From a virus (taxonomy: Duplodnaviria; Heunggongvirae; Uroviricota; Caudoviricetes): DNA of 4,296 nt. Each line of letters opens with the position of its first letter. The stretch's first letter is position 1. A program made the translations under genes and the position numbers. The stretch is from the IMG/VR virus record IMGVR_UViG_3300029229_000093; one strand, written 5' to 3'. Shown here one piece after another: positions 1,787-3,757 of this stretch. The notes below the pieces were generated by a model that was not told the origin of the DNA, did not search any database, and saw nothing but the letters and a program-made list of their open reading frames with translations.

Positions 1787-2160
1787 ATGACTGAACGCAT
1801 AGAATTTGTTTTGCCTTNNNNNNNNNNNCGCCAACGGTGAACACTTACTGGCGACGTCGTGGCAGCACATATTTTGTATCAAAAGTCGGTGAGCGTTATC
1901 GCCGTGATGTGGCGCTAATTGTTCGCCAGCAGCGGCTGAAATTAAACCTGTCCGGAAGGCTGGCGATAAAGATTATTGCAGAGCCACCGGATAAGCGCCG
2001 TCGTGACCTGGACAATATCCTGAAGGCACCACTGGATGCGCTGACGCATGCCGGACTACTTATAGACGACGAGCAGTTTGATGAAATCAATATTGTGCGC
2101 GGTCAGCTCGTTCCTGGTGGGCGGCTGGGGATAAAAATCACAGAACTGGAGTGCGCATGA
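1787..2160 (+). CDS. rusA: RusA-family Holliday-junction resolvase, interrupted by an N-run
   Basis: ATG at 1787 abuts the upstream stop (TAAATG) and encodes MTERIEFVLP before the N-run. After the gap the frame reads ...PTVNTYWRRRG...DKRRRDLDNILKAPLDALTHAGLLIDDEQ..., matching the RusA RRRDLDN catalytic region. Stop TGA 2158-2160. The two halves are out of frame across 11 Ns, so the true gap length is probably not 11. Confidence 0.7.
1818..1828. other. Run of 11 ambiguous bases (assembly gap or masked bases)
   Basis: Literal n characters in the sequence, inside the rusA reading frame. Confidence 0.99.
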
Positions 2161-2846
2161 ATAACCAGTATTTACAGTTTGTGCGTGAGCAGCTCATTAT
2201 CGCCACCGCTGATTTGAGTGGGGCAACAAAAGGTCAGCTTGAAGCCTGGCAGGAGAATGCCATGTTCGATACAGGGCGTTACAGGCGTAAAAAAATCCGG
2301 TACCGCGATGAAGTGACCGGAAAAATGATAACGCGGGATAATCCACCAATCCCGGGAAAACAATCGCTGGCGAAGGGGACGTCAATTCCTCTGGTCAGTC
2401 AGGTTGCTTTTTCTACATCATCATGGCGGCGGGCTGTTTTGTCTCTTGAAGAACATCATAAAGCCTGGTTGTTGTGGTGTTACGGCGAGAGTATTTGTTG
2501 GGAATATCAGATCGCGATAACACAGTGGGCGTGGAATGAATTTAATACTCAATCCGGTACCAGAAAAATTGCAGGGAAAACGCAGGAACGCCTGAAAAAA
2601 TTAATCTGGCTGGCTGCACAGGATGTCAGGAGATGGGTTATAGGACATGATATCTACCAGCAACAGGAGCTTGCCCGTCTGTGTGGGATTAAGCCTGACA
2701 ACTGGAGCCACAATTATGTGAGCTACTGGCGTGAAATACTCGACATTTTTATGAACCTCGATACCGAATCTCTGATTTGCACTGTGAAAAGGAGATCTCA
2801 ACAAAAAGCGGCATTTTTGCAGCGAGATATTGCAAAAGTCAATTAG
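2157..2846 (+). CDS. Putative late-gene antitermination protein Q (lambdoid Q family, 229 aa)
   Basis: ATG at 2157 overlaps the rusA stop (ATGA, 2157-2160), with SD GGAG (2147-2150). Stop TAG 2844-2846. Position directly after rusA and directly before a promoter plus short-leader terminator is the classic lambdoid Q-pR'-tR' arrangement. The ORF track also offers an upstream GTG at 2151. Family assignment is by synteny and size, not a verified alignment. Confidence 0.6.
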   Translation: MNNQYLQFVREQLIIATADLSGATKGQLEAWQENAMFDTGRYRRKKIRYRDEVTGKMITRDNPPIPGKQSLAKGTSIPLVSQVAFSTSSWRRAVLSLEEHHKAWLLWCYGESICWEYQIAITQWAWNEFNTQSGTRKIAGKTQERLKKLIWLAAQDVRRWVIGHDIYQQQELARLCGIKPDNWSHNYVSYWREILDIFMNLDTESLICTVKRRSQQKAAFLQRDIAKVN

Positions 2847-2858
2847 ATAGCATATATT
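2830..2858 (+). promoter_or_regulatory. pR'-like late promoter (sigma70 -35/-10)
   Basis: TTGCAA (2830-2835), 17-bp spacer, TATATT (2853-2858). Overlaps the 3' end of the Q ORF. Predicted start near 2865. Confidence 0.45.
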
Positions 2859-2869
2859 TTATGTAAATG

Positions 2870-2878
2870 TGATATATT
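2870..2878 (+). promoter_or_regulatory. Second -10-like element (TGaTATATT): candidate promoter-proximal pause / Q-engagement site, or alternative extended -10 promoter
   Basis: TG (2870-2871) plus TATATT (2873-2878), 20 bp downstream of the first TATATT. Lambdoid late promoters use a -10-like repeat in the early transcribed region for sigma-dependent pausing. Confidence 0.3.
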
Positions 2879-2893
2879 GCTGTAAAGTGTATA

Positions 2894-2920
2894 AACCCGC
2901 TCAAATGTGCGGGTTTTTTG
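2894..2920 (+). terminator. Rho-independent terminator (tR'-like) ending a short late leader RNA
   Basis: Stem AACCCGC (2894-2900) pairs with GCGGGTT (2909-2915) around an 8-nt loop TCAAATGT, followed by a T6 run (2914-2919). Confidence 0.75.
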
Positions 2921-2949
2921 CTTAACTCTGTGGACCTTTTTATCTGTAG

Positions 2950-2975
2950 TTGTAATATATGGATATTGTTACAAT
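2950..2975 (+). promoter_or_regulatory. Inverted repeat TTGTAA/TTACAA overlapping a candidate extended -10 promoter (TGtTACAAT) just upstream of the kinase gene
   Basis: TTGTAA (2950-2955) and TTACAA (2969-2974) are reverse complements separated by 13 bp. TG (2967-2968) plus TACAAT (2970-2975) forms an extended -10, about 7 bp before the kinase SD. Confidence 0.3.
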
Positions 2976-2992
2976 TTAGGTCGGTGAGCTTA

Positions 2993-3757
2993 ATGGAAGA
3001 ACAGCACGGTAATTACTTTATAAAACGAATTCAGTTGATTGGAAGAGGGGCATTTGGCTTTGTTGAACACGTTAAGGTTTACAACCTCAATAAAGGTGAA
3101 TGCGGGGATTATGCTAGAAAGGTTTTAGCACCCGAAAAACCAGAGCTTTTGGCGCAAATAGAGCAGTTTAGAAGGCGTTTTAAAAGGGAGGTTGTGTATC
3201 AATCACATTGCGTACATAGCAATATTGTTCCTATTTATTTGTGCGATTTGTTTGTTGAGAATCCATGGTTCATTATGGATAAAGCAGAATGTGATCTTGA
3301 GCACGAAATAACGAACAACCTTCTTACAACAGATCAAAAAATTTCAATAGTGAAAATGGTATTAGATGGTGTAGCTTACATCCATGCCAAAGGCTATTTA
3401 CACAGAGATATAAAACCCTTTAATGTTTTGCGATTTAGCGACGGAACATACAAGGTGTCTGATTTTGGTCTGGTAAAAGATACGAATCCCGAAGGGGATA
3501 CCACTAAATTGACCGAGATCGGTACCCGTATGGGAAGTACAAGATATATGGCTCCCGAGATTTTATATAATGCAGAGTATTCAGTTAAGACTGATGTTTA
3601 TGCTGTGGGACGGTTAATTGAAGACTTAAATTTAGATGATAAAAAAATAAAGCCTATCATAGCTAAGTGCACAAGGATGGATAAAGATGATAGATATCAG
3701 ACAATAGATGATGTGGCGTTTGATTTTGCGCATTCTTTTTTAAGGAGTGAGTCATGA
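2993..3757 (+). CDS. Eukaryotic-like (Hanks-type) Ser/Thr protein kinase, catalytic domain only (254 aa)
   Basis: Start ATG at 2993 with SD GGTGAG (2983-2988). Read directly: Gly-rich loop IGRGAFGFV (3038-3064), VAIK-type lysine in YARKV (K at 3119-3121), catalytic loop HRDIKPFN (3401-), DFG (3461-3469), APE (3551-3559), subdomain IX Asp in KTDVYAVG. Stop TGA 3755-3757. The longer ORF-track start at 2918 is rejected because it overlaps the terminator. Confidence 0.85.
   Translation: MEEQHGNYFIKRIQLIGRGAFGFVEHVKVYNLNKGECGDYARKVLAPEKPELLAQIEQFRRRFKREVVYQSHCVHSNIVPIYLCDLFVENPWFIMDKAECDLEHEITNNLLTTDQKISIVKMVLDGVAYIHAKGYLHRDIKPFNVLRFSDGTYKVSDFGLVKDTNPEGDTTKLTEIGTRMGSTRYMAPEILYNAEYSVKTDVYAVGRLIEDLNLDDKKIKPIIAKCTRMDKDDRYQTIDDVAFDFAHSFLRSES

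What the first reader, a model, noticed from the sequence alone, without database searches (positions are those of the whole stretch)
2830..2995. Cargo sits in the Q-controlled slot equivalent to stx, so expression is predicted to be induction-coupled
The order Q, then promoter, then short leader with terminator, then cargo mirrors Q-pR'-tR'-stx in Shiga-toxin phages. By inference, Q-modified RNA polymerase would read through the 2894-2920 terminator and express the kinase and phosphatase strongly only after prophage induction. A module switched on in a cell committed to lysis could act on host physiology late in infection or be packaged for the next host.
Basis: inference. Interest (0 to 1): 0.7.

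Follow-up and report, generated by a model that had tools for sequence, protein, structure and literature searches.

The report
Late-gene switch before kinase–phosphatase cassette
This is the ordinary late-gene switch of a phage-82-type prophage (promoter, pause site and stop signal governed by the Q protein). It is followed by an inserted kinase–phosphatase gene pair that seems to carry its own promoter, so the pair is probably made in the dormant prophage as well as after induction.

Summary
Positions 2830-2920 hold a phage-82-type late promoter pR' (-35 TTGCAA, -10 TATATT). After it come an AAA start, an extended -10-like sigma70 pause element (TGaTATATT, +6 to +14) and an intrinsic terminator (2893-2920). 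All of this lies directly after a Q82-family Q gene. The module recurs in at least 120 viral contigs, and 92 of 99 distinct variants have a terminator.

Homology to prophages without the kinase stops at the terminator, so the kinase–PP2C pair is an insertion in the Q-to-lysis slot, the slot that stx2 occupies in 933W. Relatives of the pair sit in the late operon behind all three unrelated Q families. Q-driven read-through after induction is therefore very likely.

"Only after induction" is not supported. Nine enterobacterial copies keep a promoter-like pair, T[AG]GAC[CT]-16/17-TA[AT]NNT, 30-36 nt before the kinase start (window 2931-2958). Ten of eleven copies have a terminator-like hairpin after the phosphatase. 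That is a classic moron. Distant relatives lie next to a CI repressor or next to defence genes.

The most likely behaviour is dual-mode expression, closer to stx1 than to stx2. The regulation is known; the cargo is an uncharacterised member of a known kind.

The parts
2157..2846 (+). Q antiterminator gene, phage 82 family (229 aa)
   Evidence: Pfam PF06323, E 3e-84. PHROG 304. 67% identical to phage 82 Q and 63% to phage 434 Q. It is a mosaic: nucleotide homology to PPompW phages ends at 2622, and the last ~74 aa are diverged.
2830..2858 (+). Late promoter pR': -35 TTGCAA (2830-2835), 17-nt spacer holding the presumed Q-binding element, -10 TATATT (2853-2858)
   Evidence: The QBE lies between the -35 and -10 elements of lambdoid late promoters according to PMC4914094. 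Its sequence was not tested here.
2865..2867 (+). Predicted transcription start (+1 = 2865), AAA
   Evidence: It lies 7 nt after the -10. AAA is invariant in alignment A1. Wild-type 82 pR' starts with AAA (PMC5001585). This is an inference.
2870..2881 (+). Sigma70-dependent pause element: extended -10-like TGaTATATT (+6 to +14) plus discriminator GCT (+15 to +17). Predicted pause at +24 to +26 (2888-2890).
   Evidence: TGnTATnnT is invariant. It is the third-best -10(+TG) element in the window. Positions match the 82 pR' description in PMC5001585. The pause site itself is inferred.
2893..2920 (+). Intrinsic terminator tR' (8-bp stem, 8-nt loop, T6). The terminated leader RNA would be about 53-56 nt.
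   Evidence: Stems differ by compensating changes between loci. 92 of 99 variants have such a hairpin. Homology to prophages lacking the kinase ends here, at 2919.
2921..2992 (+). Cassette-linked 5' region: left edge of the inserted kinase–PP2C module
   Evidence: It differs at only 2 of 72 nt between the window and the E24377A variant, although the pR' region differs at about 11 of 90 nt. It is attached to a different pR' in L112.
2931..2958 (+). Candidate cassette promoter: TGGACC (2931-2936), 16 nt, TAATAT (2953-2958). Predicted start near 2965.
   Evidence: The same kind of pair, T[AG]GAC[CT]-16/17-TA[AT]NNT, ends 30-36 nt before the start codon in nine enterobacterial copies whose flanking sequence is otherwise unalignable. 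About 5% of shuffles per sequence reach the score. Slid positional windows give 0 of 9. It is predicted only.
2948..2976 (+). Inverted repeat / hairpin overlapping the candidate -10 and start. It includes the extended -10-like TGTTACAAT (2967-2975).
   Evidence: There is one compensating difference against E24377A (2956 T>G with 2968 G>C). It is not conserved in L112. Its role is unknown.
2983..2988 (+). Ribosome-binding site GGTGAG
   Evidence: Read from the sequence. GGTGAG / GGTGGA is conserved in L112, L241 and L242.
2993..3757 (+). Hanks-type Ser/Thr kinase, kinase domain only (254 aa). GRGAFG, HRDIKPFN, DFG and APE motifs are present.
   Evidence: Pfam Pkinase, E 1.5e-33. PHROG 2361. PADLOC hits to mad6, PD-T4-6 and Stk2 cover the kinase domain only. 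GC is 36-38% against 46-59% in the phage backbone.
3754..4296 (+). PP2C Ser/Thr phosphatase, first 181 of 247 aa. Its start overlaps the kinase stop (ATGA).
   Evidence: Pfam PP2C_2, E 3.6e-12. The full gene is annotated in E. coli 55989. The pairing is kept in every relative examined.

Best explanation
Positions 2830-2920 are the late-gene control module of a phage-82-type lambdoid prophage.

How the switch works:
- RNA polymerase starts at pR' (+1 about 2865).
- Sigma70 re-binds the extended -10-like element at +6 to +14 and polymerase pauses near +24 to +26.
- Without Q, polymerase stops at the hairpin 2893-2920 and gives a leader RNA of about 55 nt.
- With Q, made only after derepression, Q bound between the -35 and -10 elements loads onto the paused polymerase. 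The polymerase then reads through this terminator and all later ones.

The cargo:
- The kinase–PP2C pair is a mobile two-gene cassette inserted immediately after that terminator, in the accessory-gene hot spot between Q and the lysis genes.
- The cassette is a moron. It brings its own weak sigma70 promoter (2931-2958) and its own terminator, which lies beyond the window.

Predicted expression therefore has two modes. There is a basal level in the lysogen from the cassette promoter, plus any leak through tR'. There is then a large increase when Q-modified polymerase sweeps through after induction.

Status of each step:
- Shown: the sequence elements, their conservation, the insertion boundary and the recurring genomic position.
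- Inferred: the start sites, the pause site, the activity of both promoters, and what the kinase and phosphatase do. A toxin/antitoxin-like or anti-phage role is only suggested by analogy and by neighbouring genes.
For: Module identity:
- Q belongs to the Q82 family.
- The -35, -10, AAA start and TGnTATnnT are invariant in seven diverged loci.
- The positions fit published 82 pR' features (PMC5001585; PMC4914094).
- The motif occurs in at least 120 viral contigs, and 92 of 99 variants have a terminator, against 9 of 495 shuffles.
- A P21-type holin is the first gene after the module in 38 of 97 loci. Other loci have varied cargo there.

Insertion:
- Homology to NADC1036 and VE-F5, which lack the kinase, ends at 2919.
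- The cassette is AT-rich.

Late-operon position:
- Ten enterobacterial lineages carry the cassette co-oriented in the late operon.
- Seven have it between Q and the lysis genes, behind PF06323, PF03589 or PF06530 Q proteins.
- Three have it between the lysis genes and terminase.
- L115 has a lambda-type pR', pause element and terminator in front of the cassette.

Own promoter and terminator:
- The promoter-like pair is conserved at a fixed distance from the start codon.
- Terminator-like hairpins lie 5-115 nt after the PP2C gene in 10 of 11 copies.

Use outside the late operon:
- Ferrimonas has CI repressor, cassette, integrase.
- Haemophilus has RecT/SSB, cassette, integrase.
- Aeromonas has it beside AbiE and a McrA-like HNH gene.
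- Xanthomonas has it beside a NACHT protein.
Against: - There is no transcript, start-site or protein evidence for any step.
- The cassette promoter hexamers are weak (4/6 and 4/6 in the window; PWM 6.9 against 10.4 for pR').
- The score threshold and positional window of the test were chosen after seeing the data. The copies are homologous, so part of the conservation could be descent.
- phiES15 and Flotzy do not show the same element at the same distance.
- The cassette terminator in E. coli 55989 is modest and was not listed by the tool's own scan.
- The strong bias of enterobacterial copies for the late operon could equally mean the function is tied to the lytic phase.
- The Q-binding element could not be checked.
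Confidence: 0.6

Rival explanations
1. Strictly induction-coupled, stx2-like. The cassette has no functional promoter of its own. The tR' terminator keeps it silent in the lysogen, and it is expressed only as part of the Q-antiterminated late transcript. It would then act on host physiology during the lytic phase.
For: - All ten enterobacterial lineages have the cassette co-oriented inside the late operon, behind three unrelated Q families or right after the lysis genes.
- The cassette promoter-like hexamers are weak.
- The predicted 5' UTR fold pairs the first bases after tR' (2923-2929) with the ribosome-binding region in the window, E24377A and L112. That would only matter for a transcript coming from pR'.
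Against: - The promoter-like pair is conserved at a fixed distance in nine copies whatever lies upstream.
- Terminator-like hairpins follow the cassette.
- Relatives sit in lysogeny modules and defence-gene neighbourhoods where no Q control exists.
- From background knowledge, the Q-to-lysis and lysis-to-terminase slots are the usual places for lysogen-expressed morons.
Confidence: 0.25
2. Q-independent cargo. The prophage late switch is no longer used (cryptic prophage, inactive Q, or mismatched Q-binding element after the recombination at 2622). The hairpin then merely ends the Q / pR' transcripts, and the cassette is expressed only from its own promoter.
For: - Q is a mosaic whose C-terminal 74 aa and promoter region come from a different lineage than its N-terminal part.
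- The cassette has its own promoter-like and terminator-like signals.
Against: - The Q reading frame is intact and full length against the Pfam model.
- The diverged C-terminal part and the promoter region are inherited together in all 49 E. coli genomes that have them, as expected for a matched pair.
- The E. coli 55989 prophage has a complete set of integrase, replication, lysis and head genes.
Confidence: 0.08

Closest known systems
Phage 82 late promoter pR' with its Q-binding element, sigma70-dependent pause (+25) and terminator (Roberts and Hochschild laboratories; PMC5001585, PMC4914094)
   Same: - The Q family is the same (67% identity).
- Q ends inside the promoter.
- The AAA start, the extended -10-like pause element at +6 to +14 and the G/C discriminator at +15 to +17 all match.
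- A terminator follows.
   Different: - The discriminator is GCT, not GCC.
- The base at +25 is G, with U at +24 and +26, so the pause may shift by one base.
- The leader belongs to the short class (hairpin starts at +29), as in phage 434, not the long class.
- The Q C-terminus and the -35/-10 spacer differ from the PPompW / 82-like version.
Q-pR'-qut-tR'-(tRNAs)-stx2AB-lysis arrangement of Shiga-toxin phage 933W
   Same: - The cargo is co-oriented between the Q-controlled terminator and the holin.
- Several further terminators lie in the interval.
- In E. coli 55989 the same Ile-Arg-Arg tRNA trio and a large ORF before the holin are present.
   Different: - The 933W record describes its Q as similar to the H19B and DLP12 Q proteins. 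I did not compare it with the window's Q.
- The kinase cassette sits directly after tR', upstream of the tRNAs, not at the stx position.
- The cassette seems to have its own promoter. From background knowledge, that is more like stx1, which has an iron-regulated promoter of its own, than stx2.
Morons of lambdoid phages (background knowledge: Juhala et al. 2000; Hendrix et al. 2000; examples are lambda bor and lom)
   Same: - It is an extra transcription unit with its own promoter-like and terminator-like signals.
- Its base composition deviates from the backbone.
- It is present or absent between otherwise related phages.
- It is located next to the lysis cassette.
   Different: Promoter activity and lysogen expression are not shown. 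It is co-oriented with the late operon, unlike bor.
KKP kinase-kinase-phosphatase module of Pf and other prophages (PMC11341870)
   Same: It is a prophage-borne Hanks-type kinase with a PP2C phosphatase partner. In KKP the phosphatase is the antitoxin to toxic kinases, and the module defends against lytic phages and modulates prophage induction.
   Different: - KKP has three genes in the order phosphatase, kinase, kinase, with CSD and FHA domains on the kinases.
- KKP is found in P2, P4, Mu-like and Pf prophages.
- Here there are two genes in the order kinase, phosphatase. The kinase is 254 aa with no extra domain, and the host is a lambdoid late operon.
Stk of phage 933W, and the single-gene kinase defences PD-T4-6 and Stk2
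   Same: These are phage- or host-borne Hanks-type kinases linked to exclusion of other phages. PADLOC profiles of PD-T4-6 and Stk2 match the kinase domain.
   Different: - 933W stk lies in the cI (pM) operon, not the late operon.
- It is only 24% identical to the window's kinase.
- These kinases are longer and have no phosphatase partner.
- All NCBIfam matches are far below their cut-offs.

Membership tests
Q82-type late control module (pR' / QBE / pause / tR') | Q protein of the phage 82 family encoded immediately upstream | tested here: met
   PF06323, E 3e-84. 67% identity to phage 82 Q over 229 aa.
Q82-type late control module (pR' / QBE / pause / tR') | Sigma70 promoter overlapping the 3' end of Q | tested here: met
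   TTGCAA-17-TATATT at 2830-2858. Both hexamers are conserved in seven loci.
Q82-type late control module (pR' / QBE / pause / tR') | -10-like (extended -10) pause-inducing element in the initial transcribed region, about +6 to +14, with a discriminator at +15 to +17 | tested here: met
   TGaTATATT at 2870-2878 and GCT at 2879-2881. TGnTATnnT is invariant. Positions are as described for 82 pR'.
Q82-type late control module (pR' / QBE / pause / tR') | Intrinsic terminator downstream of the pause site | tested here: met
   2893-2920. Present in 92 of 99 motif variants against 9 of 495 shuffles.
Q82-type late control module (pR' / QBE / pause / tR') | Q-binding element between -35 and -10 that is recognised by the cognate Q | not testable with these tools
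   The location is known from PMC4914094.
Q82-type late control module (pR' / QBE / pause / tR') | Sigma70-dependent pause and Q-dependent terminator read-through | not testable with these tools
   This needs in vitro transcription or reporter assays.
Stx2-type late-operon cargo | Cargo co-oriented between the Q-controlled terminator and the lysis genes | tested here: met
   E. coli 55989 layout compared with 933W. Relatives have Q, cassette, holin.
Stx2-type late-operon cargo | Expression depends on pR' and Q because the cargo has no effective promoter of its own | tested here: inconclusive
   A promoter-like pair conserved in position precedes the kinase. It is weak and untested.
Moron | Own promoter upstream of the inserted gene or genes | tested here: inconclusive
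   In silico only: TGGACC-16-TAATAT at 2931-2958, conserved in nine copies. The test parameters were chosen after seeing the data.
Moron | Own terminator downstream | tested here: met
   Terminator-like hairpins lie 5-115 nt after the PP2C gene in 10 of 11 enterobacterial copies. L115 6511-6530 is listed by the tool. In the window's lineage it lies outside the window (L001 18560-18583).
Moron | Present or absent between related phages, with deviating base composition | tested here: met
   The same pR'-tR' occurs without the cassette in NADC1036 and VE-F5. GC is 36-38% against 46-59%.
KKP module | Three genes (PP2C, kinase, kinase) with CSD and FHA domains on the kinases | tested here: not met
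   There is one kinase of 254 aa with only a Pkinase domain, followed by PP2C. The definition is in PMC11341870.
PD-T4-6 / Stk2 kinase defences | Full-length match to the family profile, and anti-phage activity | tested here: inconclusive
   PADLOC profiles match only over the kinase domain (for example 11-201 of 327). NCBIfam hits are below their cut-offs. Activity was not tested.

The most novel reading that the evidence does not exclude
The two-gene Hanks kinase / PP2C cassette is an uncharacterised, widespread moron of enterobacterial lambdoid phages. It has repeatedly settled in the two slots flanking the lysis genes, behind all three unrelated Q families.

It would work in two modes. At a low level in the lysogen it acts as a kinase-toxin / phosphatase-antitoxin sensor that excludes other phages. 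It is then massively co-induced with the lysis genes, where it could reprogramme the host or affect lysis timing.
Probability: 0.35. Interest if true: 0.6.

Novelty: new member of a known kind. Interest (0 to 1): 0.4.

Why it matters
The regulatory part is textbook and adds only another well-conserved example of the phage 82 late switch.

The useful result concerns the cargo:
- A compact kinase–phosphatase pair recurs as a self-contained unit in the late operons of many enterobacterial prophages, including those of pathogenic E. coli (EAEC 55989, ETEC E24377A, APEC BEN2908).
- It also occurs near defence genes elsewhere.
- This is directly testable with simple reporter and phage-challenge experiments.

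Tried and rejected
- **Chance promoter and terminator:** rejected by conservation and shuffles.
- **Known RNA family or leader-peptide attenuator in 2817-2959:** only sub-threshold Rfam hits, driven by the hairpin. The ATG-TGA at 2867-2872 is not conserved.
- **tRNA genes in the window:** none.
- **Solved structure for this Q family:** none found by sequence.
- **Extended -10 TGTTACAAT (2967-2975) as the cassette promoter:** it is the top -10(+TG) score in the window. The TG is lost in E24377A and the element is altered in L112, so it is not the conserved feature.
- **TTGTAA (2950-2955) as a -35 for TACAAT:** the spacer is only 14 nt.
- **MAFFT alignment of cassette upstream regions:** uninformative because the flanks are too diverged. 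An alignment anchored at the start codon was used instead.
- **First viral-contig pattern scan:** it used a spacer one base too long and found one contig. It was repeated correctly.
- **The species-representative genome collection:** it holds no close copy of the kinase; the best is 50% identity.
- **Literature searches for this cassette, for phiES15 and for PD-T4-6:** they gave no study of its expression. Only the KKP paper is related.
- **Membership in KKP, PD-T4-6 or Stk2:** not supported.
Full report
**What the window is.**
The window is the nin-to-Q end of a lambdoid prophage of the PPompW / Qin type. In order it holds:
- rem (133-384);
- a small ORF (451-729);
- a DUF968 gene (731-1786);
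- rusA, interrupted by a run of N at 1818-1829;
- a Q gene (2157-2846);
- a 146-nt gap;
- a Hanks-type Ser/Thr kinase (2993-3757);
- the first 181 codons of a PP2C phosphatase (from 3754).

The closest complete records are E. coli chromosomes. The intergenic region is 100% identical in EAEC 55989, ML35, VR50 and BEN2908. An 87-93% variant occurs in ETEC strains such as E24377A.

In 55989 the prophage is integrated next to ompW and looks complete. Downstream of the phosphatase come a methylase remnant, tRNA-Ile/Arg/Arg, a stretch with several terminators, a large DUF6645 gene, then holin, lysozyme, Rz and the head genes.

**Checking the observation.**
- Q is a full-length member of Pfam PF06323 (E 3e-84). 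It is 67% identical to the Q protein of phage 82 and 63% identical to that of phage 434.
- The promoter TTGCAA-17-TATATT lies at 2830-2858 and overlaps the last Q codons. It ranks second among all + strand sigma70-like sites in a simple PWM scan.
- The hairpin at 2893-2916 with a T-run at 2914-2919 is the best terminator-like site in the window. It folds at about -13.5 kcal/mol.

- Taking the AAA at 2865-2867 as +1, the sequence TGaTATATT occupies +6 to +14, followed by GCT at +15 to +17.
- PMC5001585 describes the phage 82 late promoter in these terms: a wild-type AAA start; a -10-like pause-inducing element that is close to consensus and includes an extended -10; a GCC discriminator at +15 to +17; an AT-rich stretch; and a pause at +25/+26 with U at the RNA end.
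- The PPompW-type variant of the motif (AAATCTGATATTTTGCCGATTTTGTA) fits every one of these points.
- The window's variant fits all but two details: GCT for GCC, and U at +24 and +26 with G at +25. The pause is therefore predicted at +24 to +26 (2888-2890).

**More than chance.**
- The composite pattern occurs once in the window and in none of 200 shuffles.
- An alignment of seven loci was built: the window, E24377A, phage 434, E. coli NADC1036, phage PhiR47_2, Enterobacter phage CobraSix and PPompW_EH2246.
- In it the -35 TTGCAAAA, the T, A and final T of the -10, the AAA start and TGnTATnnT are invariant, while neighbouring bases vary.
- Of 99 distinct 170-nt variants, 92 have a terminator-like hairpin. 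It begins either at +28/29 (a short-leader class that includes the window and phage 434) or at +44 to +53. Only 9 of 495 shuffles have one.
- The stems differ between loci by compensating changes.
- The phage 434 record annotates a terminator at the homologous place.
- The region is thus a bona fide, conserved Q82-type pR' / pause / tR' module.

PMC4914094 shows that 82 Q loads at the +25 pause, needs the Q-binding element and reads through a downstream terminator in vitro. It places the Q-binding element between the -35 and -10 elements. In the window that spacer is 2836-2852. I could not test it.

**Where the cargo starts, and what the slot is.**
- Two E. coli prophages (NADC1036, VE-F5) share the promoter-leader-terminator at about 80% identity but carry other genes downstream. 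The similarity runs from 2848 to 2919 and stops at the end of the terminator.
- Conversely, the 72 nt between the terminator and the kinase start differ at only 2 positions between the window and E24377A, although the pR' region differs at about 11 of 90.
- In IMG/VR contig L112 the same 72 nt and a 93%-identical kinase are joined to a different, phiES15-like pR'.
- The cassette is AT-rich: 36-38% GC against 46-59% for the backbone.
- It is therefore an insertion whose left edge is at about 2921.
- Among 97 viral loci with the motif, the first gene after the module is a P21-type holin in 38. In the others there is varied cargo (membrane proteins, DUF1327, TerB-like proteins, methylases, an esterase) before the lysis genes.
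- This is the interval in which 933W carries its tRNAs and stx2AB. The annotated order there is Q, pR', qut, two terminators, tRNAs, terminator, stx2AB, esterase, S, R.
One refinement applies: the cassette sits directly after tR' and upstream of the tRNA trio, not at the stx position itself.

**How the cassette is distributed.**
The kinase belongs to a family of about 250-aa, kinase-domain-only proteins found across Gammaproteobacteria. In every context I examined it is followed by a PP2C gene. I looked at about 17 contexts.

*Enterobacterial lambdoid phages and prophages.* The pair is always co-oriented inside the late operon.
- Between Q and the lysis genes:
  - E. coli;
  - Cronobacter phage phiES15;
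  - L112;
  - Yersinia, L115 / L242, behind a lambda-type Q (PF03589) with a lambda-like pause element AATCATGGG and a terminator;
  - a Raoultella-like contig, behind a PF06530 Q;
  - Hafnia, behind a PF06323 Q;
  - Providencia, behind a PF03589 Q and a methylase.
- Between the lysis genes and terminase:
  - phage Flotzy;
  - Enterobacter;
  - Serratia.

*Outside the Enterobacterales.* The position is different.
- Ferrimonas: between a CI-type S24 repressor and the integrase.
- Haemophilus: after RecT/SSB and before the integrase.
- Aeromonas: beside AbiE and a McrA-like HNH gene.
- Xanthomonas: beside a NACHT-type NTPase and SymE.
- Pseudomonas putida: among transposases.
- Vibrio: between Ig-domain proteins.

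**What this means for expression.**
- In phiES15, L112, Yersinia, Hafnia, the Raoultella-like contig and Providencia the cassette lies between the late terminator and the holin.
- In lambdoid phages the late genes are served by pR' (background knowledge). Polymerase modified by Q must therefore transcribe the cassette to reach the lysis genes.
- Q-dependent transcription after induction is therefore very likely for the window too (my estimate is about 0.85).

**Why "only after induction" is doubtful.**
- With upstream regions anchored at the start codon, nine enterobacterial copies show the same arrangement: T[AG]GAC[CT], 16 or 17 nt, then TA[AT]NNT, ending 30-36 nt before the start codon.
- In the window this is TGGACC at 2931-2936 and TAATAT at 2953-2958.
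- The surrounding bases are too diverged to align.
- What lies upstream differs between copies: tR' of three Q families, a methylase gene, or Rz.
- Yet the first T and the A of the -10, its last T, and the GAC core of the -35 persist.
- About 5% of shuffles of each sequence reach the score in that positional window. Sliding the window by 15 or 25 nt gives 0 of 9.
- The threshold and the window were set after I had seen the pattern, and the copies are related. The nominal joint probability (about 1e-9 for seven lineages) is therefore too optimistic. The signal is still clear.
- A terminator-like hairpin follows the phosphatase gene within 5-115 nt in 10 of 11 enterobacterial copies (L115 6511-6530; in 55989 at L001 18560-18583, outside the window).
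- Promoter, genes, terminator, odd base composition and presence/absence between related phages together define a moron (background knowledge: Juhala et al. 2000; Hendrix et al. 2000).
- Morons are typically expressed from the prophage.
- Together with the relatives that sit in lysogeny modules and defence neighbourhoods, this argues that the pair is also made in the uninduced lysogen.
- The behaviour would then resemble stx1, which has its own promoter as well as pR' read-through (background knowledge), rather than stx2.
- I put this dual-mode reading at about 0.6 and the strictly induction-coupled reading at about 0.25.
- Leak through tR' from a constitutively active pR' would add to basal expression. 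That is an inference from the behaviour of lambda pR'.

**What the cargo may do.**
- The kinase has all catalytic motifs in the sequence: GRGAFG, a lysine in ARKVL, HRDIKPFN, DFG and APE.
- The phosphatase start overlaps the kinase stop (ATGA at 3754-3757), which suggests coupled translation.
- PADLOC profiles for mad6, PD-T4-6 and Stk2 match only the kinase domain.
- NCBIfam hits are all far below their cut-offs.
- The kinase is 24% identical to 933W Stk, which lies in the cI operon.
- The best-characterised analogue is the KKP module of Pf and other prophages. There two kinases are the toxin and a PP2C phosphatase the antitoxin. The module blocks lytic phages and modulates prophage induction (PMC11341870).
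- The present pair does not meet the KKP definition: it has two genes rather than three, the other gene order, and no CSD or FHA domains.
- A kinase-toxin / phosphatase-antitoxin or anti-phage role is therefore an analogy, not a finding.

**Verdict.**
Q-driven expression after induction is very likely. Exclusive dependence on induction is not supported, because the cassette looks like a self-contained moron.
- The regulatory mechanism is already known.
- The cargo is an uncharacterised member of a known kind. It recurs to a notable degree in the two slots flanking the lysis genes, behind all three unrelated Q families.
- I found no publication on it in the searchable library.

Noticed in passing
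window 1818-1829: A run of 12 N lies near the start of rusA. The ORF finder therefore reports a shortened rusA (1837-2160), while E. coli 55989 has a 360-nt gene at the same place.
   Followed up: no
window 2157-2846, break near 2622: Q is a mosaic. Nucleotide similarity to PPompW-type phages ends at 2622. The first ~155 aa are nearly identical to PPompW Q, while the last ~74 aa are only about half identical. The diverged part is always inherited together with this promoter region and the kinase in 49 E. coli genomes.
   Followed up: partly
window 2948-2976: A 10-bp inverted repeat overlaps the candidate cassette -10 and its predicted start. The window and E24377A differ by a compensating pair of changes (2956 T>G, 2968 G>C). 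The repeat is not kept in L112. It could be an operator or an RNA hairpin.
   Followed up: partly
window 2923-2929 with 2986-2992: The predicted fold of the region between tR' and the start codon pairs the first bases after the terminator with the ribosome-binding region. A similar outer stem forms in E24377A and L112. There are too few variants to test covariation.
   Followed up: partly
window 2842-2813, minus strand: A promoter-like site (TTGACT-18-AAAAAT with TG) lies on the opposite strand inside the end of Q. The phage 434 record annotates the antisense promoter paQ and a CII-binding site at the homologous place. The window has TTGC-N6-TCGC instead of TTGC-N6-TTGC.
   Followed up: no
L001 19225-20202 (E. 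coli 55989): The interval after the tRNA trio, where 933W carries stx2AB, holds only a pseudogene fragment and four + strand terminator-like hairpins before the DUF6645 gene.
   Followed up: no
IMG/VR loci L120-L239: The Q82-type late leaders fall into two length classes. In one the terminator hairpin starts at +28/29; in the other it starts at +44 to +53. The long class has an extra conserved segment (CGTCGCCATAGCTTCGTAGGTCGAC) between the pause element and the terminator.
   Followed up: partly
L001 17746-18489 (phosphatase): The PHROG profile that matches the phosphatase is 565 positions long and matches only at positions 273-520. Some phages may therefore encode a longer protein that includes this phosphatase domain.
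   Followed up: no
L245 (Aeromonas) and L250 (Xanthomonas): Distant copies of the kinase–PP2C pair lie beside AbiE and a McrA-like HNH nuclease (Aeromonas), or beside a NACHT-type NTPase and SymE (Xanthomonas). These are neighbourhoods typical of defence islands.
   Followed up: no
window 2867-2872: A minimal ATG-TGA start-stop sits at +3 to +8 of the predicted leader. It is not conserved in other variants, most of which have ATC or ATT.
   Followed up: yes
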